From Alphaproteobacteria bacterium (GTDB lineage: Bacteria; Pseudomonadota; Alphaproteobacteria; CAAHEQ01; UBA3637), in the NCBI GenBank assembly GCA_017962565.1, contig JAGCVC010000001.1, forward strand, positions 9,754 through 73,753: 64,000 nt of DNA, in the 5' to 3' direction. Both the position numbers and the translations under genes were made by a program. How positions within the stretch are numbered: the stretch's first letter is position 1; every line of letters begins with the position of its first letter. Below the pieces are notes generated by a model. It worked only from the letters and a program-made list of their open reading frames with translations, searched no databases and had not been told where the DNA came from. Below, one piece after another: positions 1,631-59,500 of the stretch.

Positions 1631-4600
1631 TCAGAGGCAGTTACCAAATTCATCTTGTGCAGTAGTACATGTTATAGGAACACATTTACCTGTTCCATTG
1701 CCCCAAAGCCATTTTGTATTGCTTCCTGCAGGGCAACAATCACTATTATTTCGATCAGCATCAACATATATACCTGAGCTACTGCAACAATGCCCTTCAT
1801 ACAGATAGTCAGAATCATTAAGGCATCGAGTTGGAGTACAATGCCCATTCGAATAAGTTGCTCTTGTAACAGTGTAACCAACATCTTCTTTCGGACATAA
1901 CCTGCATGAATGATCAGATAGATTAATACCTAGTCTAGCACCCTGATAAGCATCACATTCCGAACATTCACATGTAACACCCGGATTTAAATAGTGATCA
2001 CATGCTTCCTTACCATTTATAAATGTTTCATCACAATCTACACATTTTCCGTTCTGCACGAAATATCCAGTACTACACCTTGTACAAGAACAAGTGCCAT
2101 TGTTATTTACTGCCTCAGCACAACGTTCCATTTCATCCGCATTTGAACAAGGAGTACACACACCTGCAGAAAGACCAAAGCCATCCTTGCAAATACATTT
2201 ATTTTTAACAGTACTCCATTCCTCATTTGGTCCACAACATGACTGCTCATACCATTCACCGTTTTCACTATAATAATACCAGCCATTGTTATCACAGCAG
2301 TGTCCATTTAATAAAGTGTTGCCGGGGTCACATTTTTTACATTCACAAACACCGTCTACATCAGTTTCATATTCCGCACATGTAGTTTCATATGGTGAAC
2401 AAAACTTACATGTATTTGTTGTTGTGTCAATGGCATAATGATATTCATCACTACATGATTTGCAAACACATTTATTCAGCGTTGTATTATATTCATAGAA
2501 ATCGCAATAATCAACAAGATCATCATTGTTACACAACTGACAAGTACCCGTATTTTGAAGGTCAGGATCAGTAATAAGACCATAGGTATCATCCTCCCCC
2601 CATCTACGACACAAACTACACTCACAACTGATTCCCGGTTCCGTATAATAACCATCACCTTCAGGATCACATCCTTCAGGACATTCTACGCAAGTATGTT
2701 CTGCCGTCAATCCATATCCCCATGAACACTTTGTACAAACAGAAGCATTTGTGCACTGTGAACAATTTTCGGAACATTTTTGACAAACTCCATTTGCATC
2801 TTGGTAATATCCGGATGCACAAGGGAATGCGCATACACAACTCAACCCCGGTCTCAAATACGTCTCACATCCATAACTCGGACATGATACACATTTTCCA
2901 TTAACTAACTCATATCCTTTATCACACCTTAAACATTCGCAAGACAAGCCGGAATTAGCAAAAAGATCACAATGATGGGTATTATAATAATCACTTGCAC
3001 ATGGCTCACAATTATAAATATCAGCAACACCATTAGCATTCAAAGGAGGATAGTACCCTTTAGAACACCGTGCACAAGAACAATCAAATCCCGGATTTAT
3101 GTAATCAGAACATTTTATATTGCATGCTGTACAACGATTATTAACCAATTGATAGCCTTCGTCACAAGCAGCGCAAGTACAATCTATACCCGGATTCAAG
3201 AAACGACCATCACAAAAATAAAGTTCTCGTCCTTGAGCATTATCACATGCTTCACAAGAATAGTTTCCATCGCTATCTATTGTCCTATAATATCCTGGAT
3301 CACATTTTCCGCACTGTTTTGTTTCATCAACAAGACTTATACTGTCAACACAGTCTAAACAATGATCTGTATGTGTATCAAAACAGTACTCTGCCTCATT
3401 ATTAGCTGAAACATGACGACAATAACCTTTGGCGCATCCATCCCAAGAAATACAGTCACAAGTTAACCCCGGATCACCATAAACGGCACAGTCATTTGTT
3501 ATGTTTGTCGGACATTTAACACATTGATTCTCAACTAACTTGTATGTTTCATTGCACTTAGAACAAATACACCTCGACTGTGTACTATCATAAGAATAGG
3601 TATCGCAGCTTTCTACCAAATCTGAGGATTTGCATTCTACACATTGCTGATGATCAGAAGTCAAACCATAATAGGTTCCATCATCAGAATCACAATACAG
3701 ACAATCACCTGTTGTATCTGTTCTACCACACATACGAACCGATGACTCGCCTTGGCCCCAGAATCCTAAGAGGCACAAAGGATATTTTTCTTCAGTAGGA
3801 TAATCATACGCAAAATACTGCGTAGAGTAACCCCAGTCACTACAGTCACCGCACTCTATAGCGAAACAGCCTGTCAAACCACTATATCCTCTGTTAACGT
3901 TAAAATAAACCATTTTATATGGCATGTAGACGAGAGTAGTAGTTTCGCAAGTGTGCTCATCATTCTGTGTCCAATATTCCATTCTAAGAGGATAGGCTTC
4001 CCTGAATTGAGATGTAAGAGCTTTCAAATTATGGAAATAGAAGTGTACCATACTCGTATCTATATTATGTTGAGCACCATAATACTCACACCAACTGTGT
4101 GCACTCCACTGATTCAACCTCTTAGTATCATCAAATTCTTCGCCCGGTACCAAATACACACGACCGCTATCACCTGATAATACTGCCCGATCCATCGGAT
4201 AATCGGCATACGGTACACAACGACCTTCCCCAGCACCCCATGTCCAGTAAGCTTGTGAACAACTATGTGCATTTAATTCCACACCATTCAAAGGATTGCT
4301 GACATATTCTTCATATCCTAAGGCATGTAATTTTTCAATAATGATGTCAATATTTGCCTTAAGTTCAGTACACTGACGATCTTGTGTTGGAGCCGGAAAC
4401 GGATTATCAAACAAACAGAAGTATCCATCCGGACATCCCGTAAAATCACCAACAGCATCATCTTCTCCATATTCAGGATCTCTTCTACTACCCGCCGGAT
4501 GAGGATAACATTTCATTGTTACTATCGGCTCTCCTTTACATACACCTTCATCATTAAGTGTTTTACCTTCCGGACAACCCAAGTCACAAAGGGCATAATG

Positions 4601-7600
4601 TCCATTGCCTTCATTTCGATCTAAACCGGCAACATTATTAGTTTCGTAAGAATCAGCAACATGCGCAACACAATTATTTCCATAATCTTGCAACCAGAAT
4701 TTAAGATTACTACCTGTACTTGCAGCACTTCTCAAATTTGCATATCCGGTTGATGTACATGCCGTATCCGGATAACATGCTATGCTGTTTGTTGTTGCTG
4801 ATGGTGTCGGGCGACTTACTGTACTTTGTGATACACACCAACTTTGTGCACTCCACCAATTCATCGGTTTGCTACGCAACCACTTATGTCCATCAGCTGT
4901 TGTCACCTCGGAATTATCCGGTGCATAATCAGAGACAGGCAAACACTTACCAATTCCAGATTCTGCACAAGAGGTAGCATCTCCAAAATAACAGAACCCG
5001 CCTTCTGGACATCCGCCATTCTCCACGCCTTTTTTCGTCCAACTTCTACACAAAAGTTCTGCTTTACACAAAGCACGGATATTCTCCGGCCTTGGTGCAC
5101 CAATGCCCTTTAAGTCATCTTCAGAATAATAAGTCAAACTTACATTGCCATTTGCATCTTTGCCACCAACCACTACGGCATGAATGCAATTACATTCCGT
5201 TTGAGTACCTGCACAAGTGCCCCGACTACAACCATTAGATGTAGAATGGGATACATGACTGCCACCGTTTATCCAGAATGATCCACCGGTAATCTTTCCT
5301 GTCTTTACAAGGCTGACTAATTCATCATCAGTTGCAAGGTTATACCCATGTTCTGCATCATTACGTTCCATTTGTCCTATTGCCCAACAATAACTCTTGG
5401 CGGTTGCAGCACTTACTGAACCGAAAGTATTATAAACAAAACGATCAAATGCACTATCATTCAATAAAACACTTTGTTTACCCCAGAATGCTACCGGATT
5501 ACAAGCACCAATATTAGGTACTTCAGTATCGCCAGTAGTGGATTTTCTTATAGTATATGCTCCGGGTCCATCTCCAGATGAATCCGCACGACAAACAGCA
5601 GATCGCGAATAAGTACAGAAAGTACTTCCGGGGCCGATATTAGTAACATCACACACACCCCAATTAGAACATCCCCAAGGAACGCCTGTTTCCAAATCTG
5701 GTACGCATCTGTTACAACCGTCATTTTCTACAAGATGGTAACCCGTTTCACATGCTGCACATGCATGGTTTGAACCACTTATTGCGGTACAATGAGGCAT
5801 TAAACAATAACCACTTATTTTACAGGACTCTTCACAATTGCTTATACAATCCGTTGAATTACACAAGTGATCAAGGCATACACCATTCGCACAAGGCGGA
5901 TTTGGACAAGGTGGCGGTGAAGGACATGTACATATCCCATTGACATCAGGACATCTTTCCGGACATGGACATTTAGTATCCGGATCAGGGTACTCAGCAT
6001 CTTTGTCACGAAGAGAAGCCTCTAGTGGATCGGTTGGCATTACACACTTATATTTTGTACATGGACAATCTATATTTGCCTCTGGGTAGTACTTACTTGT
6101 ATCTTCTTCTGTACAAATATTACCATCGGAAAGTTCATGTGGCAAAGTATGTTGTACACATGGTGTCTTACATACCCATTCGCCGTCTTCATAAAAATCT
6201 TTCCAACCATCTCCACAAGGACATCTTAGCTTTTCATCAGTCGTTGCATTACCTGTAAAAGTCGTACGACATACATCATCGACAGGATCAACAGGAACTT
6301 CTTTACGATGCGCTTCATTTGTCGGCTTTATACATGAACATCCTTCACATTTACAATATACAACAACCTTCGAATATGATTGATAAATCCATTTTGGCAA
6401 TCGAATTCTACCTTCTGCCGTACAATCTGTTTCATCCTCAACACATATACGTTCACACGTTTTATTATCACTGCTCTTGCTCCAACCTGTATACTTTACT
6501 CCGTCTATTGTCAAACCAGAGACAGATAAATCTTTTCCAGTCATACACGGACATGATTGATTTGGCGTATCATATTCCTGTCCTTCATTGTATTCTGTAC
6601 AACATGGATTATAATCGGATGAATCAATCGTTGGCTTTTTACAAGGATAAGAATACTCAATGCATGGGCAATAATCATCATCCGCATTTGTTAAGGAATA
6701 ATTATTATATGCGACGCACCCTTCTATCTTATGGGCTTCGTCACGTTCTCTACAATAGCATCTATGTACGCTTTCAGGAGCAGGCCCCACTCGATCCGGA
6801 TACTCTGCCGGACAAAGACAGCTAACCCCTTTCGACCACGTCGTCGGACATGTTCCATTTGATAAAAGACCGCCCGACAAAAGCGTACCTGTAATCCGGT
6901 GTGGATCTTCATGCGGGTCATACCCATCAGGTGTTACACAATAACAACAATCAGCACAACACGGACAAGGTCCTGCGTTTGTTGAACAAGAATCATACGC
7001 AGAACACCCTTCTATTGCGTTTGCACTTGTTCTTGTCTGACAATAACATTTTTTTGTACTATCATTTCCACAAGTTCTTTCTTCATAATTACTTGTATCA
7101 CAATAGCATTTCGTAGTCTCATTATACGTAGATGCGCATACCTGATGATAATTTGCATCTAACGCCCTTATAAGACGACGTGCAGCATCTTCTGTATCAG
7201 TCGGCATCACACAATTACAGTTACATGGACAGAACGGCACAACACCGTTTGTCACTTGTGATGCAGCATAAACTGTCGACGTATTTTCTGATCCGTTACA
7301 CAAAGGATCCGTATTACCCGGCGTACAACAATAATCTTTACATGTACAAGAAACTACGCTACTTGGATGTTCACTGTGCACCCATTTTTCATTTTCATTA
7401 TATGAATGACAATTGTTACCAACTCCTGTGCCTGTACAACTGCTGTTAGGTATTCCTGGAACGCAACTACGTACGCACTGATTACCGCTAATGCTCCAAC
7501 CACCATAGTTTACTCCATCGATGACCAAACCGGTATCTCTTAAATCAAGGCTGTTATCATTTACATCTGTACATGGACAAGGTTGATTTGGTGTAGAATA

Positions 7601-9211
7601 CGTCCGTGTTTCATCATACCCGAGACAACATGGATTACCCGTAGGCACTTTACATTTGTATTCTATACACTTGCAATCTCCCTCATGTGTTGCGTATGAA
7701 CTCGTTCCATCCCCGTCTTCATATTTAACGCAATCGTCAATTTTTTTGAACTTACAATAACATCCTGAACGACCATTATCATTCGGATTTGTTCTTTCTT
7801 CACGATTTCCTCTACATGGGCATATAAATTCCGGAGCACAAACAGCACCACTCAAACTACCTGTCTCATTTGTTTCCGGATTAACACGATTGTTCGGATT
7901 AACACCTTCTACATTACATATTGTATAACAATGCCCATCACTTTTCTTTCTATAACCCTCTTTACATGTTGATTCACAAACAAGACATTCTTGATCTGTT
8001 GAAAATGCCTCGGTAGCATAATCAGCACAGGTGTCAGCATCATCCGGCACGTAACACATAAGTTTTGTACACGGACATCCACCACCTTTTTCTGTTGCAG
8101 GAGTTGCTTCATTCCATTCTTTACACTGGCAAGGCGGCCAATCTTGATTTCCGCTGTGACAGAACCAACCGGTACAAGCACAACACTCTGATGTTCCTTC
8201 AAATTCATCGTTATATTCTACACATTCTTCATCTCTTGGACATTTTTTGCTACCAGGATAAGGATTTATACAAATTCTGATTTTTATACAAAGCCCCGTA
8301 GGCTCGTCCAATTCAAATCCTTCCTCGCATTCTTTACAAGGACATTCATCTGACTGTTCAGCATAATTATAATCGACACAATGCGCAATCTTCACAGGAT
8401 CACAAGCAAATTCAACCGAATCTTCACCAAAACAAGCACACGTTTCCGGATTTATTCCACCTTCTTCCTCACAGTCATCCGGAACGCACTTTCCACCACA
8501 ACTGACAGTTCCGAGCGGACAACACCTTTCTGGTCTATCAACTCCATCACCTAATTCGTTTCTAAGATCATTTAAGCAAAGAGCTCTTCCTTCACTAAGT
8601 CCCTCACAACAACAACCATTACACAACTCAGCAGCAGTACATCCTTCTGCACAGGAAGGATTACCGCTGAAATAGAAACGAACAGTCACAGTTGTTTCTC
8701 TCTCTTCTATTGGCTCATCTTCTATTATTTTCGGTTGGCAAATGTCTTTTGGTTTTGTTTCATCTTTTTTAAAATCTCTTACTTCACCTTTTGTAATAAT
8801 CGCCATTTTATGTTTATCTTGTGCTTTTGGCAACAAAACCGAACAATCATCCGGCAATACTGTCGGCACATCAATATAGAATGATTCCCCTGAATCTTTG
8901 ACTGCTGCCAACGCGTATATACTGTTCCCTCTGAAATCCGTTTCAGCGATTACTGCGCCTTCTTCAATTTCCCCTTTAGGGATATCTTCCAAACGTTCAT
9001 ATATCGTAAGAGCCAAACGTTCCACATCATCGGCGATCTGATTAGCATGGTGGTGATTGATTGATATATGATACAAAGATATACCTGCTATACTCAATAT
9101 GCCCACAATAGCCAGAACGCCCAGCATTTCCAACATAGAACGTCCTTTCTGAATAGCAAATTTCACGGTTGTTTTCTTTTGTTTTTTGAAGAAATTCAGA
9201 GGATTTAACAT
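1631..9211 (-). CDS. Giant (2526 aa) cysteine-rich modular surface protein with N-terminal prepilin-type (class III) signal/pilin-like helix; dozens of EGF/furin-like Cys-rich repeats (CxxC...GY.LVN..C..C), NxT/S sites
   Basis: Uninterrupted 7.58-kb ORF; strong RBS AAGGGAG 9 nt upstream of ATG at 9211; N-terminus KG|RSMLEMLGVLAIVGILSIAGISLY (G, E at +5, ~20 hydrophobic residues) matches type IV pilin/pseudopilin leader; extreme Cys content with periodic spacing. Confidence 0.8.
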   Translation of the reverse strand: MLNPLNFFKKQKKTTVKFAIQKGRSMLEMLGVLAIVGILSIAGISLYHISINHHHANQIADDVERLALTIYERLEDIPKGEIEEGAVIAETDFRGNSIYALAAVKDSGESFYIDVPTVLPDDCSVLLPKAQDKHKMAIITKGEVRDFKKDETKPKDICQPKIIEDEPIEERETTVTVRFYFSGNPSCAEGCTAAELCNGCCCEGLSEGRALCLNDLRNELGDGVDRPERCCPLGTVSCGGKCVPDDCEEEGGINPETCACFGEDSVEFACDPVKIAHCVDYNYAEQSDECPCKECEEGFELDEPTGLCIKIRICINPYPGSKKCPRDEECVEYNDEFEGTSECCACTGWFCHSGNQDWPPCQCKEWNEATPATEKGGGCPCTKLMCYVPDDADTCADYATEAFSTDQECLVCESTCKEGYRKKSDGHCYTICNVEGVNPNNRVNPETNETGSLSGAVCAPEFICPCRGNREERTNPNDNGRSGCYCKFKKIDDCVKYEDGDGTSSYATHEGDCKCIEYKCKVPTGNPCCLGYDETRTYSTPNQPCPCTDVNDNSLDLRDTGLVIDGVNYGGWSISGNQCVRSCVPGIPNSSCTGTGVGNNCHSYNENEKWVHSEHPSSVVSCTCKDYCCTPGNTDPLCNGSENTSTVYAASQVTNGVVPFCPCNCNCVMPTDTEDAARRLIRALDANYHQVCASTYNETTKCYCDTSNYEERTCGNDSTKKCYCQTRTSANAIEGCSAYDSCSTNAGPCPCCADCCYCVTPDGYDPHEDPHRITGTLLSGGLLSNGTCPTTWSKGVSCLCPAEYPDRVGPAPESVHRCYCRERDEAHKIEGCVAYNNYSLTNADDDYCPCIEYSYPCKKPTIDSSDYNPCCTEYNEGQEYDTPNQSCPCMTGKDLSVSGLTIDGVKYTGWSKSSDNKTCERICVEDETDCTAEGRIRLPKWIYQSYSKVVVYCKCEGCSCIKPTNEAHRKEVPVDPVDDVCRTTFTGNATTDEKLRCPCGDGWKDFYEDGEWVCKTPCVQHTLPHELSDGNICTEEDTSKYYPEANIDCPCTKYKCVMPTDPLEASLRDKDAEYPDPDTKCPCPERCPDVNGICTCPSPPPCPNPPCANGVCLDHLCNSTDCISNCEESCKISGYCLMPHCTAISGSNHACAACETGYHLVENDGCNRCVPDLETGVPWGCSNWGVCDVTNIGPGSTFCTYSRSAVCRADSSGDGPGAYTIRKSTTGDTEVPNIGACNPVAFWGKQSVLLNDSAFDRFVYNTFGSVSAATAKSYCWAIGQMERNDAEHGYNLATDDELVSLVKTGKITGGSFWINGGSHVSHSTSNGCSRGTCAGTQTECNCIHAVVVGGKDANGNVSLTYYSEDDLKGIGAPRPENIRALCKAELLCRSWTKKGVENGGCPEGGFCYFGDATSCAESGIGKCLPVSDYAPDNSEVTTADGHKWLRSKPMNWWSAQSWCVSQSTVSRPTPSATTNSIACYPDTACTSTGYANLRSAASTGSNLKFWLQDYGNNCVAHVADSYETNNVAGLDRNEGNGHYALCDLGCPEGKTLNDEGVCKGEPIVTMKCYPHPAGSRRDPEYGEDDAVGDFTGCPDGYFCLFDNPFPAPTQDRQCTELKANIDIIIEKLHALGYEEYVSNPLNGVELNAHSCSQAYWTWGAGEGRCVPYADYPMDRAVLSGDSGRVYLVPGEEFDDTKRLNQWSAHSWCEYYGAQHNIDTSMVHFYFHNLKALTSQFREAYPLRMEYWTQNDEHTCETTTLVYMPYKMVYFNVNRGYSGLTGCFAIECGDCSDWGYSTQYFAYDYPTEEKYPLCLLGFWGQGESSVRMCGRTDTTGDCLYCDSDDGTYYGLTSDHQQCVECKSSDLVESCDTYSYDSTQSRCICSKCNETYKLVENQCVKCPTNITNDCAVYGDPGLTCDCISWDGCAKGYCRHVSANNEAEYCFDTHTDHCLDCVDSISLVDETKQCGKCDPGYYRTIDSDGNYSCEACDNAQGRELYFCDGRFLNPGIDCTCAACDEGYQLVNNRCTACNIKCSDYINPGFDCSCARCSKGYYPPLNANGVADIYNCEPCASDYYNTHHCDLFANSGLSCECLRCDKGYELVNGKCVSCPSYGCETYLRPGLSCVCAFPCASGYYQDANGVCQKCSENCSQCTNASVCTKCSWGYGLTAEHTCVECPEGCDPEGDGYYTEPGISCECSLCRRWGEDDTYGLITDPDLQNTGTCQLCNNDDLVDYCDFYEYNTTLNKCVCKSCSDEYHYAIDTTTNTCKFCSPYETTCAEYETDVDGVCECKKCDPGNTLLNGHCCDNNGWYYYSENGEWYEQSCCGPNEEWSTVKNKCICKDGFGLSAGVCTPCSNADEMERCAEAVNNNGTCSCTRCSTGYFVQNGKCVDCDETFINGKEACDHYLNPGVTCECSECDAYQGARLGINLSDHSCRLCPKEDVGYTVTRATYSNGHCTPTRCLNDSDYLYEGHCCSSSGIYVDADRNNSDCCPAGSNTKWLWGNGTGKCVPITCTTAQDEFGNCL

Positions 9212-28364: not shown

Positions 28365-31082
28365 TTAATATTCACAAGATCCATTGTTATAGGTACGAAC
28401 ATGCTGGCTTCCAGGATAGTCACATTTGTCGCATTCTTCCTTTGATGTTTCCTTGGCGTTCGCGTTAAAACATCTTGTACAATTACCATTGGCATTTCTG
28501 AACCACCCCAACGGACACGACCAATCGCAATAACCATCCTCACCTATTTCACGGGTACCACATGACAAACATTCTGCATCATTATAAGCCCCTCTTCTGT
28601 AAAGATCTTCACAACTTCTACACTGTTGATCTGAACTCCAATATTTACCGGCTCCACATTTTGGTACATTCGTTCCATCACATGTCGCACCGGATGGACA
28701 ATTTGCACAACTGCTACCATTCCAGTACTGATTACTATTGCAAGATGTTGCCGTTACACGCGTTCCGTCGCATGTTGCACCCTCCGGACAATTTACACAA
28801 GAACTGCCGTTCCAATACTGATTTGTTCCATGACAGCAATTCACGTACAAAGCGTTAGAAGCGCTATTAGTATTAGGAGCATAGGTATGTGAAACATAAC
28901 CGGCCTTACAACTTGCCCCCGTTCCGTCACATGTTGCGTTATTTGGGCAATTCCTGCAAGTATTACTAATCCAATATTGATTACTTTTACAACAAGCCAA
29001 ATTTCCGGTAGAAGTCATATGTGAAGTATAGTCGCCTCCACAATTTCCTTCCGAACCATTACATGTCATACCGTTTGGACAAGAAACACACTTATTACCG
29101 TTCCAATATTCCTTCGTGTTGCTGCAACAATACGAAATACCGGAATAGTTTGTATGTAAAATATAGCCACTTGGACAATTATCTCCTTCACATGTTGTAT
29201 TATTATTCGGACAAGCATTACATTTATTACCACTTACATATCTACCTTCGCCGCAATCTACTATAGTAAAGCCATCACATCTTGCATTGTCAGGACAATT
29301 AGCACAATTAGTCCCATTTTTATATTTACCTTCGCCACAATTTGTTATTTTTCCTGCCTCACATGTCGCACCGCTTGGACAAGCAGCACAACCGTTATCA
29401 TTCCAATATTGATTTGAAGTACAACAATATTTATCGGCTCCGTTTTTCTCAAACAAGAAGGAACCCTCATTACATCTTACATTTTTCCCATCACATGTTC
29501 CACCGTTTGGACAATTCTTACAAACACCTGCGTTATTCAAATACTTACCACTACCACAATCTGCTTTTGTTCCATCACATGTTGCACCGTTAGGACAAGT
29601 TTTACACGAATTAGTTTCATGATCATAGTATAAGAAACCATTACCGCCACAATTTACACCGGTTCCATTGCATACTGCACCGGAAGGACAAATATAACAT
29701 CCCCCTTCTTCTAACAAATACTTACCTTCCCCACAAGTTTCTATACCCGTTTCGTTACATGTTGCATAGGATGGGCAGAAAGAACAAAAGGATCCATTCC
29801 AATACTCATTTGCACTGTTACAACAATACAAATTAGGAACGTTGCCATGTGAAATATAGTTCGCCGCACAACCATTTACATTCACTCCATCGCATATTGC
29901 ACCGGTTGGGCAAGGTTTACAAGCACCTATTTTATTCAAATAATAACCAACGCCACAATTTGCATTCGTTCCGTCACATGTTGCACCGTTCGGACAAAAT
30001 TGACAGACACCCGTCCAATATTGACTTGTATTGCCACAGCAACCTACATTTTGTCCTTCTTTATGAAGAGTGTAACCTTCCGCACAACCCGTTATATTTT
30101 TACCATCGCACACCCCATGAGCGATGCACGATGAGCAATTAAACTTACGTTCATTCCAATATTCTCTTCCTATTTCACAACAATACGCGTTGTTTTGATA
30201 TACCTTAGCTAATAGATACCCTGACGGACAATCCGCACTTGTTCCATTGCACGTCATACCAGTCGGACAAAATTCACATGTTTCGCCATCCCAATATTCG
30301 CTTTGTTCTCTACAGCATCCGTACAGTTCTTCAATATTACCATTGAACACATAACCTTCGTGGCAACTGAATTTTTTTCCGTCACAAACCAAATTACTAC
30401 CCGGGCAATCTGCACAATTACCATTTCTATCTATATATTTACCTTCACCACAGTTTGCGTTTGTTCCATTACATGAAGTAAGACCATCCGGGCAACTTGC
30501 ACAATTGCCATCATTGTCTACATATTTACCTTCCCCACAATTTGCATTCGCACCATCGCATACTGCACCCGCCGGACATGTTGCGCAACTGGATCCATTC
30601 CAATATTCATCTTCTTGGCATCCATAATCTTTAGGCTTGACCCCACCTTTACTGCCGTCAAATGCTATACCTATGTTATTGAATTCTGCACATGATGCCT
30701 TCTGAACCAGTGCCATTTCGCCATTTTCATAGACATCGTAGTAAACTACCTTTCCCCCCTTCATCTTTAACATATGTTCGCAGATTTTTTCCGGAACCTC
30801 TATCGCTTGCACATATGTTATTAACTTACCATGACCTGTTGCACGTATAACTTTAAATACAAACCCGCTTTCCGCCGCTATAGAGTATTCTGTCCAATTT
30901 GGATATTCTGTCTCTGTTGATTCAACCGATCCATATATCAAAGATGCATCCTGAATCGCTCTATTGGCTCTATTCTTATTCATCACATAAGAAAAACCAA
31001 ATAATGCTGCTACACTCAATATACCTATAATTGCCAATACACTCAGTGTTTCCAGCATGCTACGTCCGCGTTCATTTCTCAT
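28365..31082 (-). CDS. Cysteine-rich modular protein (905 aa) with N-terminal prepilin-type signal (RG|RSMLETLSVLAIIGILSVAALFG) and about 18 tandem Cys-rich modules of roughly 35-40 aa (YCC..EYWNG..C..CP.GATCDG.NANCGEGKY)
   Basis: Uninterrupted ORF; RBS GGAGGAAAG 9 nt upstream of ATG 31082; N-terminal 30 residues about 75% identical to those of the 2526-aa protein; regular Cys spacing throughout. Confidence 0.8.
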   Translation of the reverse strand: MRNERGRSMLETLSVLAIIGILSVAALFGFSYVMNKNRANRAIQDASLIYGSVESTETEYPNWTEYSIAAESGFVFKVIRATGHGKLITYVQAIEVPEKICEHMLKMKGGKVVYYDVYENGEMALVQKASCAEFNNIGIAFDGSKGGVKPKDYGCQEDEYWNGSSCATCPAGAVCDGANANCGEGKYVDNDGNCASCPDGLTSCNGTNANCGEGKYIDRNGNCADCPGSNLVCDGKKFSCHEGYVFNGNIEELYGCCREQSEYWDGETCEFCPTGMTCNGTSADCPSGYLLAKVYQNNAYCCEIGREYWNERKFNCSSCIAHGVCDGKNITGCAEGYTLHKEGQNVGCCGNTSQYWTGVCQFCPNGATCDGTNANCGVGYYLNKIGACKPCPTGAICDGVNVNGCAANYISHGNVPNLYCCNSANEYWNGSFCSFCPSYATCNETGIETCGEGKYLLEEGGCYICPSGAVCNGTGVNCGGNGFLYYDHETNSCKTCPNGATCDGTKADCGSGKYLNNAGVCKNCPNGGTCDGKNVRCNEGSFLFEKNGADKYCCTSNQYWNDNGCAACPSGATCEAGKITNCGEGKYKNGTNCANCPDNARCDGFTIVDCGEGRYVSGNKCNACPNNNTTCEGDNCPSGYILHTNYSGISYCCSNTKEYWNGNKCVSCPNGMTCNGSEGNCGGDYTSHMTSTGNLACCKSNQYWISNTCRNCPNNATCDGTGASCKAGYVSHTYAPNTNSASNALYVNCCHGTNQYWNGSSCVNCPEGATCDGTRVTATSCNSNQYWNGSSCANCPSGATCDGTNVPKCGAGKYWSSDQQCRSCEDLYRRGAYNDAECLSCGTREIGEDGYCDWSCPLGWFRNANGNCTRCFNANAKETSKEECDKCDYPGSQHVRTYNNGSCEY

Positions 31083-52545: not shown

Positions 52546-53535
52546 TTAAGTAATACTTGTCACGGCACGGATGTTACCATTACGGTTGATTTGAACAACA
52601 CGCAACTTATCGTGCATTTCCTTTAATGTTTTTTCTCGGTCGATTGTCGGTGTTGTACGCATAATACGTGCAACGAAAGCTCTGTATGCTTCTTCGGTAT
52701 TTTCGGCATGGATAGTTGCAAAACAGTTTTCATGACCAGATCCCATCAGTTCCCAAACCGCGCTGGCATTTGATGTAGAAATTTCACCGCAAATAATCGC
52801 ATCCGGCGTAAAACGCACAATCAAGTCAATCACGCGTGTATAAGAAAACTTATTGGTTTGATCTGTACGAGGCAACACAACATGCACTCTGTTTTTATGC
52901 GGAATAATCAATTCGCGTGTATCTTCAACCGTAATAATGCGCTTATGTTCATCAACCAACTTTATCATATTGTTTAAAAAAGTTGTTTTACCGGTTGCCG
53001 TTCCACCACTAATTAAAATGTGTTCACCTTTTCGAATAGACAATAACAAACGATCGTAAGGATCATCAGGATCTTCTACCTGAGCCATTTTATTTAAAGG
53101 CCGTAACCGTTGCCCTTGTTCCAAATTAAAGTCGCTAAATTCAATCCCGATATCTTCTTTATAAACACGGATGGCTAATGCAACACCACCTGTCAAATCT
53201 TCATTATCATACATTACATTCCGACCACTAATGCCCGTAAAACGATGCCCGCCCGGTAATGTAGCATAAACAACAGGGTTACCTTCTGTCGGTTCAAAAG
53301 ATTGATCATAGCTGTTTGCAATAATATACAAAATATTATTCAAATATTCTCTGGTTAACTTTGGATCTTCCTGTTCTTGCCAAGGATGCTCTCTACGTCC
53401 ACGCAAACGCAACCAAATGGCACCCGGATGGTCAACAGCAACTTCCTCCACACCGTCTTGTTTATACCAGTAAGATAAAGGACGCAGAGCAGATTCTAAA
53501 ACCTTATACGTTTCGGAAATTGATAACTCTGGCAT
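52546..53535 (-). CDS. virB11: Type IV secretion system ATPase VirB11
   Basis: 329 aa; Walker A GGTATGKTT, VirB11/TrbB/GspE-family Asp and His boxes; RBS AAGAGAGGGG; start 15 nt after virB10 stop. Confidence 0.9.
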   Translation of the reverse strand: MPELSISETYKVLESALRPLSYWYKQDGVEEVAVDHPGAIWLRLRGRREHPWQEQEDPKLTREYLNNILYIIANSYDQSFEPTEGNPVVYATLPGGHRFTGISGRNVMYDNEDLTGGVALAIRVYKEDIGIEFSDFNLEQGQRLRPLNKMAQVEDPDDPYDRLLLSIRKGEHILISGGTATGKTTFLNNMIKLVDEHKRIITVEDTRELIIPHKNRVHVVLPRTDQTNKFSYTRVIDLIVRFTPDAIICGEISTSNASAVWELMGSGHENCFATIHAENTEEAYRAFVARIMRTTPTIDREKTLKEMHDKLRVVQINRNGNIRAVTSIT

Positions 53536-53549
53536 TAACCCCTCTCTTT

Positions 53550-56500
53550 TTAATACAGCGTATCTGAAGCATTCACACGACTGGAACCACGTTTTGCCAA
53601 CGGCTTAGCCACACTCTGATTAACCTTGTAGTCCGATAATCCCTGACGAGAACGATAACGATCTTCCAAGCTCTGTTCTTTCTTGGAAGCCGTTTCTTCA
53701 TCTTCATCAGAAGAAGCCGGTGTATAGATATTTTCATCTGTATATTCCGGTTCGTAATAATCCTCATCATCTTCAGATTCTGCTTCATCGGATCCCTGTG
53801 ATCCATTCGTTGCAGCAGGACGTGTCGAACGGTCAGCAGTTGGTCTTTGCTGCATCCGACCAGAATTACCCTTTGGTGTCTGAGCCGCTGTCGGATCCGG
53901 TCCGTTTTCGGCAACATAATCATCTTCATCATCCTGTTCGCTACGTAACCACAAATCATCCATAGCAAACACAGTCATACGCGTACCGGACGGAACAAAA
54001 ACAACCGGCGGAGTTGAAGAAGATTCTTCTATCATCTGCTGGAAGATTTGTTCCATGTCATCCAAGAATCTTTCACGTGCATCTTGTGCAGCTTGAGCTC
54101 TGGCAGATTGAGTAGAAGTACCATAGTTTTCATTGGTAGTTACAGCATCATCTGAGGAAATAATATAACTGATTGCAGAAGTCAATGTTGATTGCAACAA
54201 AGGTTTACCGTAACGAGCTAACCATTGTTCATCCAAGTAAGCAGCTACACCGCCTCGACCTTGAGCATCTCCGGATGTTCCGCTTAAAGTAAACTGCGAT
54301 CCGTCAGGACGGATTAAACGTTCCCAAGAAATTTCCATCATAGACACGTGGTTTGTTCCTGCACCACCCGAACAACGACCGATTAACTTACTACCGGCCG
54401 GGATAACGATATTACGTCCATCTTCAGCAAACACATTACGTTCCACAATTGCAGAAGCAGGCACACTCGGATAACGAGAGTCAATTGAACGTACTAACAC
54501 AGCAGGAATTGCTTTGTCTTTCAAAATCATTCTTGTCATGTCAACCGGCCAAGATGAAACGATCTTTGAACCAAAATCTTTATCCTGTTTTTGTTTTGCA
54601 CGCGCTAAGACACGTCCGTCTGGTGTAATCTTTGCCATATTACGACCAACACCTTGTTTCATTTCTGCCCGTCGACGAGCCAACAAATCACGCATTGCAG
54701 AAGCTTGTGCCGGATCAAACTGTAATTTTTCTTGTGGATAAAGCCCGTTTGCACCCGTAGCACCATTCAATCCTAATTCATCAGCTAACAAATTGCCGGA
54801 TAATGAATAAGGAACACCATTGCGTAAAGTACCAACAACTGCACCGGTTGCATCAACAATTGTATTATCAGGCATTACAAAGAAACTCTTATCCCCGATT
54901 GCAATCCGACGACCCGTTAAACCGGCACCACCTATTCCCGGCGATCCCGCTAACAAATTCTTTACACCGGAAACAAATCCCGTTGAAGAAGTGGGTTTTA
55001 ATTTACCAACAACTTTACCATTGATTTCAACAGTACCATCCGGATGAATCTTTCCGATGATATTACCATTTGCATCACGGATGTTTCCGAATTCGTCAAC
55101 ATAACCGATGACATTACCGTATTTATCATAAACTATACAATTTTTGATGGTATAAAGCAATTCACCATTGTCATCATAGACTGTTCCATCATACTTTTTA
55201 CATGGCGGGTTTGTATCCAATTTACCCAAGATTTTACCATTGACTTCAACAGTACCATCCGGATGAATCTTTCCAATGATATTGCCATCTTTATCGCGAA
55301 TGTTTCCGTATTCATCCACATATCCGATAACATTACCGTATTTATCATACAAGACACAATCTTTAATCCAACCGTTCATTTCACCATTTTCATCATAAAT
55401 GATACCATCGTATTTCTGACACGGTTTTTCAAAGTCTTCAAACATCGTAATTGTGCCATCAGGATTCAAACGTCCTATTGGTTTACCGTTCATATCATAA
55501 ATGATGCCGTCCGGTCCGATCCAGCCGGTTTGATTACCATCCAAATCAAATAACTTACCGTCTTTGATATATCCCGTAATATTACCGTTTGCATCATAAA
55601 TGTAGTTTGGCAAATTCGTTGCATTACCAATCTTATTTCCGGCTAAATCATAGATATTGCCGTCTTCATCCAAATAGCCAATTAAGTTACCGTTTGGATC
55701 ATACAATTTATCATCGGCACCAACCGTAAATAAGTGCTTACCGTTATTGTCAAATACTTTACCGCCTTTATCCATAGAACCGATAATGTTGCCATTATCA
55801 TCAAAGAGCAAGTGGTTCTTTTTGATATCGACAACAGAACCGATCTTGTTGCCGTCCAAATCAACAACCGTTCCATCACCCAATACTTTACCGATAACTT
55901 CACCGTTAGCATTAACAACTTGTCCGTTTCTTAAAACACGACCGATAACGTTTCCGTTTTCATCAACAACAATACCGCGTTTTAATACATGACCGATAAC
56001 ATTGCCATCGTGGTCAATAACCGTTCCGTCTTCCAAAGCACAACCGATTGACACACCTTCCATATTTACAACATCAGCATCCGGCAACGTACGACCCAAC
56101 ACATCACCATTGTCTGCAATAACAGTTCCTTTTAATACAATACCGCCCAAAGATTGACCTTTTTCGTCTTTAGCCAATCCGTCTAATCCGACATAACCGA
56201 CCACTTTGGCATTACCATCAATAATACGACCATCGTAACGAACTTGTCCTTGAATTTGACATTGTTTTGTAACCAATTCTTTCGGAACAACAGCACCTAA
56301 AGTTTTTAATTGATGCTTTCCTTTAACAGCTCCGTTAGAAGCCAAAGGACCAACTTTTGCACCTTTGATATCTGTTACATAACCGTCACCGGTTGAATCA
56401 CCGATAACATTTGTTTGATGATCAATTGCTGTTCTAAAACCAACCAAAGCACCGGCCAAATTACCGTCTGTTCCCAACAACGTTGCATCATCCAAAACGG

Positions 56501-59500
56501 AAGCTATCTTTTTATTAGCTATATCTAAAACATCACCACTAGGCATTGAACGACCGAATAAAACCGGTTTCAAACCGATCGCAGCACCACTGCTGATAAC
56601 ATCTGCAAAATCAGGCATTACACCATAACTGTCACGACTGAGCAAACGAACGATTGTACCATCCTGCATAGCACGTCCGACAAGTGCTCCGTCTGCTTTA
56701 ACAACAGAACCATCAGGTGCAACAAAACCAACTATTTTTGCAAAATCATCTACCGCTGCACCGATCGGCATTGTTATACCAACCAAACGATTGTCAACAC
56801 TTAATGCTGTACCGAACGGCATCAGTGTTGCAATACGTGAACCTTCGTTATCATTAACCGCATTTGAAATAGATGTTGTACCGACAATACGTCCGTCACG
56901 ACCAACCATCACGGATGGTTCAATCAAACCGCCGACAACTTTATCCAAGGAATCATACATAACTGAATCCGGTAAAGTTTTTGCCGCCAAAGTATTACTT
57001 TGTAAAACCGTTCCATCGGCAATTGCATTTCCGGCAATTGATAAATCGGAAGCCAAACAAATACCAAACGGAACATATCCTCCAACGATTGCCTTATTCT
57101 TATCTACAATACGCATACTGGTTGTTAAAACATCTGTTTCTTCAACACCATCAACTTCTTGTAAAACAGTAGCATCAGAGAAAATATGTCCCATGACTTT
57201 GCCTTGTTCATTTTCTGCAAAGCCTTGCGGCATCATGTTACCCAAAATTTCATCATTATTATTGACCAATGTTGTTCCGATTACTTGTCCGACAACGGCA
57301 CCTTTGCCATCACGAACAACACCATCAAATGCCATAGCACCCAATACTTTTCCTTTTTGATCAAAGTAAAGTGTTCCGTAAGGAATATAAGAACCTAACA
57401 CTTGATTGTTAGCATCTATAATTCTGTTATCATAACGAATTTGTCCGATAGCTTGTCCGCGTTCATTGACAACAGCAGCATCATAACGTGTGAATCCCAA
57501 TTTTTTACCATTGACATCCAATGCAACACCTTTTTGTAAAACGCGACCAACCCAAATATCTTTTGCATTGATTAAACGGTCATCATAAGGGAAGGATCCC
57601 AATACTTCGCCCGTACGACCCAAAACACGTCCGTCAACGGAAACGACACCTGCAAAATTACCTTTTAAATCCGTCACTGTTTGACGCGGTATCAAATGAC
57701 CAACTTGCATACCGGATTCATCAACAGCATATCCGTCAGGCATCATCTTTCCGATAGAATGGAAATCTTCACGTGCATTTACTTTTCCTTCAAAGGCTAA
57801 CCAACCTTTTACTCTGCCGTCTGTTCCGATAACAGAACCCAAACGCACCAAAGAACCTAAAACTTGACCGTTATTACCGTAAACATTACCGGCAGCCGTC
57901 ACATGTCCGACAGGCTTACCGTCTTTATTTACTTCGCCATTGATTGTCATAAATCCGATTAATTCACCGTTCTTACCCAATGGAATAGAAGCTTCCGGGA
58001 ATACCATACCGATAACGGCACCATCAGAATTTAAAACTGTTCTGTTTAAAGTAACAACACCGATTTGTTTTTGGTCGGCAGACATAACCGTTCCGTTACC
58101 TTGAACAGAACCCAATACCTTACCATTCCAATCTAAAACAGAACCGGTCGGCATCAAACCACCCAAGACGACACCATCTTTATCCATGACACTGCCATCA
58201 GCACGAATATTACCCAAAATTTGAGAATTACTATCTATTACTTCACCGTTACCGTTAACAGAACCGATCCGTTCATTATCAATATTGATAATCTGACTGC
58301 CATCCGGAATCAAAGCACCGATGATTTCTGATTTTTCGATACTGACAGCTGTATAATCCGGCAAGACACGCGCAAACTTAACACCTTTTGGATCCATCGC
58401 AAAACCAATCTTGCTGGTAAAGCGTCCCAAGAAACGACCTTCCGGAGAAACGATGATACCATCTGGCGGAATAAATCCGATAATTTCACCACGTTCATTA
58501 ACAACTTTATCATCAATCAACGTACCGATTAAATTACCGTTCTCATCATATTCTTTGCCATTAACAACGGTCCAACCTGTCGGATTACCATTTTCATCCA
58601 AAATAGCACCCGCTGTTGCATCAGCAACAATACCGATTAAGTTACCTTTTTCATCAACAACCGTTCCATCCGGGTTAACGCAACCGATAACAGAGCCGGT
58701 CTTATCAACAACTTTTCCATCCGGACGAACATAACCCAAGAATTTACCTTTTAAGTCTACAACCGCACCCAACGGGGTAACACCACCGATAACTTCCCCG
58801 GATCTGTTCAAAACTTTTTTATCCGGATCAACAAAACCGACAGAAACACCTTCTGAATTGATTACTTGGCCATTCAAATCAAGAATACCCAACAAGACAC
58901 ATCCCGGAGCAACAGCGGTTCCTTTTGGTATAACCGCACCGATAATCTTTTCGTTCAAATCCATCACATAACCGGAAGTCAGGACAGAACCGACAGCTTC
59001 ACCTGTTGGTTTGACAACAAAACCACTTGGTAAAACCAAACCTTGAACTTCACCATCATATCCGATTACACGACCCCGTGGCATAATCGCACCGATAATT
59101 TCTTTACCGGAAGCAACTGATCCATCCGGATTAACACAACCGATTAAATCAGCATCTTTCGTAACAGCCTTACCTTCAGAATTTAAGAAGGCAATAACTT
59201 CACCCGCCGGATTAATGATTAAACCTTCACGAATAACCATACCGACCGGAACTCCGGACATATCTAAAACTAAACCATTGATTGTTGTGTAAGCAACTTG
59301 TTGATCAAAGGCATTATAAATTTTACCATTACCGCCAACTTTACCCAAAATACCGCAAGTATGACCGATACCTAAACCTTTTGCAACAGTTCCACCGACA
59401 ATGGCGCCACTGTCATTGACAACCAAACCACCCGGTAAGATCCGTCCGATTACTTGACCTTCAGCCGAAACAACCGTACCATTTAATTGTGTAGCACCAA

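What the first reader, a model, noticed from the sequence alone, without database searches (positions are those of the whole stretch)
55020..55350. Near-identical about 215-bp direct duplication (Cys-containing 70-aa block) inside the virB10 repeat region
Two blocks encoding C.KYDG..YD.NGE......K.C..YDKYGNVIGYVDE.GNIRD..GNIIGKIHPDGTVE.NGK..GKL are more than 85% identical at the DNA level and arranged head-to-tail, whereas the rest of the 13-mer repeats are diverged. Such recent in-frame duplications are the substrate for RecA-mediated expansion and contraction, as in the cagY middle repeat region, and imply ongoing size variation. The paired Cys residues could form disulfides in the periplasm.
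Basis: seen in the sequence. Interest (0 to 1): 0.5.

Follow-up and report, generated by a model that had tools for sequence, protein, structure and literature searches.

The report
Duplicated beta-flower domain in giant VirB10
A 2,331-residue VirB10 secretion-system protein of an uncultured Alphaproteobacterium (nearest relative a human gut MAG) carries two head-to-tail copies of a 73-residue cysteine-containing mini-barrel domain. The number of copies differs between related genomes, and the copies keep exchanging sequence, while the rest of the huge repeat array is fixed in length.

Summary
The period is 219 nt (73 aa), not about 215. The two full copies lie at 55203-55421 and 54984-55202 on the minus strand. 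They are 76% identical overall and 85-88% identical only in the central 100-150 nt. The background repeat is a 17-mer, not a 13-mer.

Each unit is one complete 8-stranded, four-hairpin beta-flower domain (AF2 pLDDT 92; Pfam Bflower). It sits at the end of a roughly 1,650-aa beta-flower array between the membrane anchor and the VirB10/TrbI barrel.

Relatives carry 2, 3 or at least 4 units, and four short-read scaffolds break exactly in this array. The nearest orthologue differs from the window by one whole 73-aa unit.

The duplication is not recent, because unit heads and tails are orthologous between genomes. The unit cores, however, are more alike within a genome than between orthologues, at synonymous sites too, which indicates gene conversion.

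The rest of the array has no indel of 3 aa or more among orthologues at 60-80% identity. Only 5 exact repeats of 16 bp or more exist in the gene, against more than 300 potential recombination events in the cagY middle repeat region.

This is therefore slow, local, module-level copy-number evolution, not cagY-like hypervariability. The proposed disulfide is plausible but untested.

The parts
53550..60545 (-). virB10-like gene, 2,331 aa. It has an N-terminal anchor, a roughly 1,650-aa array of 17-aa beta-hairpin repeats, a TrbI/VirB10 C-terminal domain and an acidic tail.
   Evidence: ORF listed, translation. Pfam gives TrbI 3.5e-34, Bflower_2 1.6e-105 (15 stretches) and Bflower 5.5e-48 (5 stretches).
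55203..55421 (-). Cys-module unit 1 (aa 1709-1781), one 4-fold beta-flower domain with Cys1709 and Cys1730.
   Evidence: Coordinates. Pfam Bflower 5.4e-09 on the unit alone. AF2 gives a short helix plus 8 strands, with pLDDT above 90.
54984..55202 (-). Cys-module unit 2 (aa 1782-1854), a tandem copy of unit 1 with Cys1782 and Cys1803.
   Evidence: 167/219 nt and 51/73 aa identical to unit 1. AF2 gives a second helix plus 8-strand domain.
55248..55352 (-). Homogenised core of unit 1 (unit aa 24-58). It contains exact matches to unit 2 at 55330-55349 (20 nt) and 55245-55274 (30 nt).
   Evidence: The core is 87% identical to the unit 2 core, against 80% to the orthologous L001 core. Codon identity at identical residues is 23/31 against 14/33. 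Exact runs are listed. A run of 16 consecutive variable sites agrees between the units, permutation p=1e-4.
55029..55133 (-). Homogenised core of unit 2 (unit aa 24-58). The exact matches lie at 55111-55130 and 55026-55055.
54984..59933 (-). Whole beta-flower array (about aa 205-1854), base period 17 aa (51 nt).
   Evidence: Protein autocorrelation peaks at offsets 17, 34, 51 and 68. Repeat spacings are multiples of 51. Pfam hits. No indel of 3 aa or more against L005 and L006 between aa 80 and 1776.
60426..60485 (-). Predicted membrane anchor (aa 21-40, LLFIGIAALLVFLFIFMGVM), preceded by KRSNRR.
   Evidence: Read directly from the translation. The topology is inferred from the positive-inside rule and the established topology of VirB10.
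53946..54527 (-). TrbI/VirB10 C-terminal barrel domain (aa 2007-2200).
   Evidence: Pfam TrbI at 118.7 bits against a cut-off of 35. Matches to solved structures: ComB10 2bhv 9.4e-20, VirB10 6gyb 1.1e-14, CagY 8cb2 7.2e-08, TrwE, TraF.
52546..53535 (-). virB11-like ATPase gene, immediately downstream of virB10.
   Evidence: Pfam T2SSE 1.3e-22.
60651..62261 (-). virB9/CagX-like gene (536 aa), immediately upstream of virB10.
   Evidence: Pfam CagX 1.8e-11.
62383..63144 (-). virB8-like gene.
   Evidence: Pfam VirB8 8e-15.

Best explanation
The feature is a tandem duplication of one complete structural domain. The domain is a 73-aa, 8-stranded (four-hairpin) beta-flower mini-barrel with an N-terminal helical turn and two invariant cysteines. 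It forms the last module of a roughly 1,650-aa beta-flower array that replaces the usual short periplasmic linker of VirB10, between the inner-membrane anchor and the outer-membrane TrbI barrel.

Shown:
- The unit boundaries coincide with the domain boundaries.
- The module is present in 2, 3 or at least 4 copies in related genomes.
- The closest orthologue differs from the window by exactly one unit.
- The duplication is older than the split from that orthologue.
- The central roughly 105 nt of the copies have been re-homogenised within each genome since that split.

Inferred:
- Copies are gained and lost by unequal recombination or replication slippage between adjacent units. This is always in frame because the unit is 219 nt.
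- Short-tract gene conversion keeps the cores alike, while the heads and linker tails stay position-specific.
- Each unit carries an intradomain Cys1-Cys2 disulfide formed in the periplasm.
- The copy number adjusts the size of the membrane-distal end of the VirB10 spacer next to the outer-membrane core.
- Turnover is slow, on the scale of species or strains, and is not a rapid switch.
For: **Domain identity.**
- The AF2 model of aa 1700-1860 has pLDDT 91.8 and pTM 0.76. Each unit is a short helix followed by 8 strands.
- Pfam Bflower and Bflower_2 hit each unit alone.
- The beta-flower fold is described as 8, 10 or 12 strands built from hairpin petals with a [DNEQ]xxG tip motif (PMC10584680).

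**Copy number.**
- Unit counts are given.
- The window and L001 proteins differ by a single 73-aa gap.
- 100-N scaffold gaps fall inside this array in L002, L003, L004 and L013.
- Inter-unit identities in relatives reach 89% (with an 87-nt exact run) and 111/114 nt.

**Concerted evolution.**
- Within-genome unit identity is 0.69-0.89 and mostly exceeds between-genome identity (at most 0.76). The one clear exception is the orthologous pair win_1/L001_1 at 0.80; in L001 only the 1/3 pair (0.74) clearly exceeds the between-genome values.
- Units cluster by clade and, within L003, by genome in the NJ tree (which does not include L005 or L006). Unit length, 73 or 79 aa, is shared by all copies in a genome.
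- Codon identity at identical residues is 0.745 for win_1/win_2, against 0.47 +/- 0.07 between genomes.
- The pattern is a mosaic, with the core closer between paralogues and the head and tail closer between orthologues (Fisher p=0.013).
- In the GENECONV-like test, p=1e-4 for win A/B and 2e-4 for L001 A/C, with no comparably strong signal between genomes (the only nominal one is the orthologous pair win_A/L001_A, p=0.045).

**Within-species hotspot in a relative.** 21 of the 31 L002/L013 mismatches lie in 425 nt of the last unit, and 12 of them fall within 50 nt.

**VirB10 identity and context.**
Against: - There are no reads or strains of the window's own species, so present-day length polymorphism in this genome is not shown.
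- The longest exact match between the two window units is only 30 nt, which is a weak recombination substrate.
- Repeated independent duplications in each lineage could mimic part of the concerted-evolution signal. The position-specific heads and tails argue against this as the sole cause.
- The Fisher test on core codons is only p=0.013.
- Copy numbers in the scaffolds with N-gaps are lower bounds, and the gaps could have other causes.
- The disulfide and the functional role are inferences.
- Periplasmic location rests on canonical VirB10 topology and was not tested here.
Confidence: 0.72

Rival explanations
1. This is a static, ancient duplication. The two units have simply been retained, and their similarity reflects purifying selection on a well-packed domain plus codon bias. 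No recombination is going on, and the L001 third copy is a one-off event.
For: - The duplication predates the split between the window and L001 lineages.
- Overall identity is only 76%, with 22 non-synonymous differences.
- Only two exact repeats of 16 bp or more lie in the duplication.
- The rest of the array is length-invariant.
Against: - Synonymous codon identity between the paralogues is 0.745, above the between-genome baseline of 0.47 +/- 0.07 (maximum 0.63) and above the orthologous pair in the core (23/31 against 14/33).
- Significant runs of shared variable sites occur only within genomes.
- Most within-genome unit pairs (in the window, L003, L005 and L006) show the same within-genome excess; in L001 only the 1/3 pair does clearly.
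- Copy number takes at least three different values among relatives.
- A mismatch cluster lies in this module between two strains of one species.
Confidence: 0.15
2. This is a cagY-like contingency element. Frequent in-frame recombination among many DNA repeats rapidly changes VirB10 size and secretion activity or antigenicity within a host, as in the H. pylori cagY middle repeat region.
For: - The protein family is the same (VirB10), with a very large repeat region and regularly placed cysteines.
- All exact repeats in the gene are in frame.
- The closest relative with a stated source, L001, is a Hadza human gut MAG, so host-associated relatives exist.
- cagY behaviour is documented in PMC2194252 and PMC5954226.
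Against: - Only 5 exact repeats of 16 bp or more occur in 7 kb, against more than 300 potential events in the cagY MRR (PMC2194252).
- The array has no indel of 3 aa or more across orthologues at 60-80% identity, outside the Cys module.
- The repeats are beta-hairpins and are not homologous to the alpha-helical A and B motifs of CagY (PMC2581425).
- No within-host or within-species length data exist.
Confidence: 0.08
3. This is an assembly artefact. The duplication was created by mis-assembly of a repeat, by collapse or by false tandem joining.
For: Relatives' scaffolds do break at this array, so the region is hard to assemble from short reads.
Against: - The two window units differ at 52 of 219 positions, and their differences preserve the reading frame and the domain pattern.
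- The same two- or three-unit arrangement is found in independent gap-free contigs L001, L005 and L006.
- The unit heads and tails are orthologous across genomes.
Confidence: 0.03

Closest known systems
Helicobacter pylori CagY (VirB10 orthologue) middle repeat region
   Same: - It is a VirB10-family protein, with homologous C-terminal domains (CagY 8cb2 7.2e-08).
- A very large internal repeat region separates the membrane anchor from the VirB10 domain.
- Cysteines are regularly placed in the repeats (PMC2581425).
- Repeat-unit gains and losses are in frame (PMC2194252; here).
   Different: - CagY repeats are alpha-helical A and B motifs; the A motif is 38-39 aa (PMC2581425). Here the repeats are 17-aa beta-hairpins forming beta-flower barrels.
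- cagY carries hundreds of exact DNA repeats and varies within hosts (PMC2194252, PMC5954226). This gene has 5 exact repeats of 16 bp or more, and its array length is conserved across species except for one module.
- No functional or immune link is shown here.
Beta-flower fold families (Pfam PF21784 Bflower, PF21785 Bflower_2; clan CL0395)
   Same: - The whole protein and each 73-aa unit match these models.
- The model shows 8 short antiparallel strands per unit, consistent with the four-fold form.
- The [DNEQ]xxG hairpin-tip motif is visible in the sequence (YDENGE, YDKYGN, RDKDGN, HPDGT).
   Different: - The described beta-flowers are mostly small single-domain proteins, some of them lipoproteins (PMC10584680). 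Here about 20 such domains are strung together inside a secretion-system subunit.
- The two units of the finding add a Cys pair and an N-terminal helical turn.
Canonical VirB10, TrbI, ComB10, TraF and TrwE
   Same: - The TrbI domain scores above the Pfam cut-off and matches solved ComB10, VirB10, TrwE and TraF.
- There is an N-terminal single anchor.
- The gene order is virB8-virB9-virB10-virB11.
   Different: - Solved VirB10-family chains are 216-406 residues long. The canonical short proline-rich periplasmic linker (my own knowledge) is replaced here by about 1,650 aa of beta-flower domains.
- A roughly 130-aa acidic tail follows the TrbI domain.
Concertedly evolving tandem domain repeats in bacterial surface or envelope proteins (general class; my own knowledge, not tested here)
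   Same: Whole-domain tandem units occur, with copy-number differences between strains or species. Within-genome homogenisation by gene conversion or unequal crossover is typical.
   Different: Here only the terminal module of a long, otherwise fixed array behaves this way, and the copies are only 76% identical in this genome.

Membership tests
VirB10/TrbI family (T4SS core subunit) | C-terminal TrbI/VirB10 beta-barrel domain | tested here: met
   Pfam TrbI scores 118.7 bits against a cut-off of 35, E 3.5e-34, over aa 2007-2200. phmmer matches ComB10 2bhv at 9.4e-20 and VirB10 6gyb at 1.1e-14.
VirB10/TrbI family (T4SS core subunit) | N-terminal cytoplasmic tail plus a single inner-membrane anchor | tested here: met
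   A hydrophobic stretch at aa 21-40 is preceded by KRSNRR (translation). This is a sequence-level reading only.
VirB10/TrbI family (T4SS core subunit) | Encoded next to virB8, virB9 and virB11 | tested here: met
   VirB8, CagX/VirB9 and the T2SSE ATPase flank the gene on the same strand. The same order is seen in L001 and L003.
VirB10/TrbI family (T4SS core subunit) | Assembly into an outer-membrane core complex with VirB7 and VirB9, and a role in secretion | not testable with these tools
   This needs biochemistry or cryo-EM.
Beta-flower fold (Pfam CL0395: PF21784/PF21785) | Significant match to the family HMMs | tested here: met
   The whole protein gives Bflower_2 at 347 bits and Bflower at 163 bits. 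The single units give Bflower at 36.9 and 27.7 bits against a cut-off of 25.
Beta-flower fold (Pfam CL0395: PF21784/PF21785) | Closed shallow barrel of 8, 10 or 12 short antiparallel strands built from hairpin petals | tested here: inconclusive
CagY-type recombining middle repeat region | Repeat motifs homologous to the CagY A and B alpha-helical motifs | tested here: not met
   The repeats are beta-hairpins of the Bflower families. The array has no PDB sequence match to CagY. The CagY motifs are alpha-helical (PMC2581425).
CagY-type recombining middle repeat region | Extraordinary density of exact direct DNA repeats of 16 bp or more | tested here: not met
   There are 5 such repeats in 6,996 nt, and 0-11 in orthologues. 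cagY has more than 300 potential events in the MRR per strain (PMC2194252).
CagY-type recombining middle repeat region | In-frame gain or loss of repeat units between related strains or species | tested here: met
   A 73-aa whole-unit indel separates the window from L001. Relatives carry 2, 3 or at least 4 units. This holds only for the terminal Cys module.
CagY-type recombining middle repeat region | Within-host or within-population length variation that alters T4SS function | not testable with these tools
   No reads or isolates of this species are available. The only within-species pair, L002/L013, shows clustered substitutions in the module, but its length is unresolved because of N-gaps.

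The most novel reading that the evidence does not exclude
Giant beta-flower VirB10 proteins of uncultured, partly gut-associated Alphaproteobacteria would be a second, independently evolved case of a VirB10 with a huge repeat region. In them, a defined Cys-stapled terminal module is gained, lost and converted between strains, tuning the outer end of the secretion machine. The literature treats such a repeat region as unique to CagY ('unlike other VirB10 orthologs', PMC5954226). Because the remaining roughly 1,500 aa of the array are length-invariant, the array would be a precisely sized structural assembly rather than a floppy spacer.
Probability: 0.3. Interest if true: 0.6.

Novelty: new variant of a known kind. 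Interest (0 to 1): 0.4.

Why it matters
CagY is the textbook and supposedly unique VirB10 with a large recombining repeat region. Here a non-homologous repeat type, beta-flower mini-barrels for which PDB searches here found no solved counterpart, fills the same position in VirB10. This occurs in a clade of uncultured Alphaproteobacteria, at least one of them from the human gut.

One specific module shows copy-number change and gene conversion. If that is confirmed in populations, it gives a tractable natural experiment on how the length and composition of the VirB10 spacer affect type IV secretion. It would also give the beta-flower fold its first clear cellular context.

As it stands, the finding itself is an ordinary tandem domain duplication with slow concerted evolution.

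Tried and rejected
- An exact look-up of the window protein in the assembly index returned nothing on record. No same-species sequence was found, and the best protein hit is 62% identical. Population-level indels for this species therefore could not be checked.
- I tested whether window unit 2 is a chimera of L001 units 2 and 3, which would be the signature of an unequal-crossover deletion. The 21-nt bin profiles are ambiguous (69% against 71%, with no clean breakpoint). Gain in L001 cannot be told apart from loss in the window.
- Foldseek against PDB gave only spurious Rhs and sialidase hairpin matches, with TM 0.12-0.22.
- The AFDB50 library was not available.
- A PDB sequence search with the array gave only marginal phage-tail hits, E 0.002 and weaker.
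- Literature searches for DUF3659, and for VirB10 combined with tandem repeats and gut Alphaproteobacteria, found nothing relevant.
- The Cys-Cys distance could not be measured because model coordinates are not exposed.
- I rejected the idea that the RHS_repeat hit makes this an Rhs or YD protein. The hit is below or near the cut-off on single units and reflects the shared hairpin motif only.
- I rejected the antisense ORF 55044-55553 (+) as a gene. It lies wholly inside the repeat region of virB10.
Full report
**1. The observation**

The region lies inside a 6,996-nt ORF on the minus strand (53550-60545, 2,331 aa).
- Tandem Repeats Finder reports a single array in 53000-61000. It spans 55000-55397, with period 219, 1.8 copies, 81% matches and no indels.
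- The repeat finder reports a 149-nt pair at 85% identity with 219-nt spacing (D10).
- In protein coordinates the units start at C1709 and C1782, exactly 73 aa apart. Unit 1 is window 55203-55421 and unit 2 is 54984-55202.
- Whole units share 167/219 nt (76%) and 51/73 aa (70%). Codon differences are 13 synonymous and 22 non-synonymous.
- In a complete self dot-plot of the gene, offset 219 gives the best 100-nt window (88/100). The runners-up are 70/100 at offset 102 and 68/100 at offset 51. Codon-shuffled controls reach 52-55/100.

So the duplication is real, and it is the single outstanding off-diagonal in the gene. It is not 'near-identical', however. The period is 219 nt rather than about 215, and the background repeat is 17 aa (51 nt) rather than 13. 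Autocorrelation peaks fall at offsets 17, 34, 51 and 68, and DNA repeat spacings are multiples of 51.

**2. What the gene is**

- Pfam finds a TrbI/VirB10 domain at aa 2007-2200 (118.7 bits against a cut-off of 35). It also finds very strong matches to the beta-flower families: Bflower_2 at 347 bits in 15 stretches and Bflower at 163 bits in 5 stretches.
- The C-terminal part matches solved ComB10 (9.4e-20), Xanthomonas VirB10 (1.1e-14), a CagY fragment (7.2e-08), TrwE and TraF.
- The flanking genes on the same strand are virB8, virB9/CagX and a virB11-type ATPase.
- The N-terminus has a KRSNRR motif followed by a 20-residue hydrophobic stretch.
- By canonical VirB10 topology (established knowledge), the roughly 1,650-aa array between the anchor and the TrbI barrel would be periplasmic.
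- The window is chromosomal, carrying dnaE, uvrD-like, trkH, asmA and tRNA genes. Its GC content is 37%.
- The nearest relative found is an uncultured alphaproteobacterial MAG from a Hadza gut sample.

**3. What the unit is**

An AF2 model of aa 1700-1860 was built with a 30-sequence alignment of beta-flower segments. It is confident, with mean pLDDT 91.8 and pTM 0.76.
- Each 73-aa unit is a short helical turn, containing Cys1, followed by eight short strands, that is four hairpins.
- Each unit alone hits Bflower and Bflower_2.

The duplication is therefore a duplication of one whole domain, in register with the domain boundaries (73 = 4 x 17 + 5 linker residues).

Cys2 sits in the short turn between strands 2 and 3. 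Cys1 sits just before strand 1, on what should be the same face of the barrel. This is a topological inference only, because coordinates could not be read. Both Cys are invariant in all 14 complete units compared, from seven genomes.

**4. Relatives**

Two genome contigs, eight metagenome contigs and three contigs recovered through protein hits carry related genes.

| Locus | Units | Unit length | Note |
|---|---|---|---|
| window | 2 | 73 aa | gap-free |
| L001 | 3 | 73 aa | gap-free contig |
| L005 | 2 | 79 aa | gap-free contig |
| L006 | 2 | 79-80 aa | gap-free contig |
| L003 | at least 4 | 79 aa | 100-N gap in the array |
| L002, L004, L013 | at least 2 | 79 aa | 100-N gap in the array |
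| L007, L008 | none | - | 49% identity in the TrbI region |

- All four scaffolds with 100-N gaps (L002, L003, L004, L013) have the gap exactly inside this array. Their units are very similar: 212/237 nt with an 87-nt exact run in L003, and 111/114 nt in L002.
- Global alignment of the window protein with L001 (79.6% identity) shows only two indels of 3 aa or more. One is a 73-aa gap, exactly one unit, and the other is 7 aa in the acidic tail.
- Against L005 (70%) and L006 (60%) there is no indel of 3 aa or more between aa 80 and 1776. The big array is thus strikingly length-invariant, and only the Cys module varies.
- A more distant full-length orthologue, P0006, is only 878 aa. Array size has therefore changed on deeper time scales.

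**5. Age and dynamics**

*Whole-unit identities.* Window unit 1 and L001 unit 1 are 80% identical. This is like the flanking DNA (82.5%) and higher than unit 1 against unit 2 of the window (76%). The duplication therefore predates that lineage split and is not recent.

*Mosaic pattern.* In the head and tail, orthologues are closer (77% and 87%) than paralogues (67% and 67%). In the core (unit aa 24-58) the paralogues are closer, at 87% against 80%. The difference is carried by synonymous sites: identical codons occur at 23/31 identical residues against 14/33 for the orthologues (Fisher p=0.013).

*Synonymous identity overall.* Codon identity at identical residues is 0.745 for the window pair, against 0.47 +/- 0.07 (maximum 0.63) for 82 between-genome pairs.

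*Conversion tracts.* A GENECONV-style permutation test finds long runs of shared variable sites only for within-genome pairs. Window A/B share 16 sites (p=1e-4) and L001 A/C share 14 sites (p=2e-4).

*Same pattern elsewhere.* In the window, L003, L005 and L006 the units are closer to each other than to units of any other genome; in L001 only the 1/3 pair (0.74) clearly is. In the NJ tree, which includes the window, L001, L002, L003 and L004, units cluster by clade and the three L003 units cluster together. The unit length, 73 or 79 aa, is shared by all copies in a genome.

*Within one species.* L002 and L013 are 98.7-99.6% identical. 21 of their 31 mismatches lie in the 425 nt covering the last unit, and 12 of those fall within 50 nt.

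Taken together, this is concerted evolution: an old tandem duplication whose cores are repeatedly homogenised, with occasional gain or loss of whole units.

**6. Comparison with cagY**

- By the criterion used for cagY (identical direct repeats of 16 bp or more; PMC2194252), the window gene has 5 such repeats. Only two of them, 20 and 30 nt long, lie in the duplication. Orthologues have 0-11.
- cagY has more than 300 potential recombination events in its MRR per strain and shows within-host size variants (PMC2194252, PMC5954226).
- CagY repeats are alpha-helical A and B motifs with conserved Cys (PMC2581425). Here the repeats are beta-hairpins.
- The resemblance is therefore one of position and principle: a VirB10 with a large Cys-containing repeat region and in-frame unit turnover. 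It is not one of homology or of rate.
- RecA dependence was not tested here. Even for cagY, size variation was reported not to require RecA (PMC2194252).

**7. Verdict**

The finding is a genuine tandem duplication of a whole domain, with local, slow concerted evolution.
- The disulfide idea remains plausible and untested.
- The more interesting object is the gene as a whole, a VirB10 with about 20 beta-flower domains. It recurs in many uncultured Alphaproteobacteria, and I found no description of it in the searchable literature.

Noticed in passing
window 54984-59933 (-); L001, L005, L006 orthologues: The roughly 1,650-aa array of 17-aa repeats is length-invariant. There is no indel of 3 aa or more between aa 80 and 1776 against orthologues at only 60-70% identity. 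That is unexpected for a repeat array and suggests a precisely sized assembly rather than a floppy spacer.
   Followed up: partly
window gene aa 397/470, 549/622, 1429/1502 (about window 59355/59136, 58899/58680, 56259/56040): Three further Cys pairs are spaced exactly 73 aa apart, one four-petal module. They are conserved at equivalent positions in L001 and L005-L008, down to 49% identity. They may be disulfide 'staples' closing or linking individual beta-flowers.
   Followed up: no
protein hits P0072-P0102: Beta-flower arrays are also fused to CpaB/RcpC (Flp/Tad pilus assembly) proteins, for example in Gilvimarinus species. The same repeat type therefore recurs in another envelope-machine protein (Flp/Tad pilus assembly) of a different system.
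   Followed up: no
L002 548-647, L003 8164-8263, L004 1454-1553, L013 1324-1423: Four independent short-read scaffolds each carry a 100-N gap exactly inside the Cys-module array. True copy numbers in these genomes are therefore unknown and probably higher than counted.
   Followed up: partly
L002 759-1075 against L013: Two strains of one species (98.7-99.6% identical) differ by a cluster of 12 substitutions in 50 nt at the head of the last Cys unit. This looks like a conversion patch from an unseen donor copy.
   Followed up: partly
window 53550-53945 (-), aa 2201-2331: An acidic, low-complexity tail of about 130 aa follows the TrbI domain. It carries motifs (EEYYDPGYT-like, and a terminal S/TLF or TLY) that recur in the consensus of the seven aligned relatives. 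Its function is unknown.
   Followed up: no
window 60651-62261 (-): The VirB9/CagX homologue is 536 aa long, with a weak C-terminal SPOR-like match (E 0.004). This hints at a peptidoglycan-binding extension.
   Followed up: no
window 1631-9211 (-), 13722-18425 (-), 28365-31082 (-): Three other very large ORFs (2,526, 1,567 and 905 aa) have no Pfam family, or only spurious ones. They could be candidate effectors or surface proteins, or simply uncharacterised genes.
   Followed up: no
window 55044-55553 (+), 56791-57360 (+): Long antisense ORFs (169 and 189 aa) lie entirely within the virB10 repeat region. They are most likely by-products of the repetitive, stop-poor complement and not genes.
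   Followed up: no
window aa 60-200 of the VirB10 (about 59946-60368, -): A conserved non-repeat N-terminal periplasmic domain carries four Cys (134, 144, 196, 199; CxxC at 196-199). It is present in all orthologues, including the short 878-aa P0006, and has no Pfam match.
   Followed up: no
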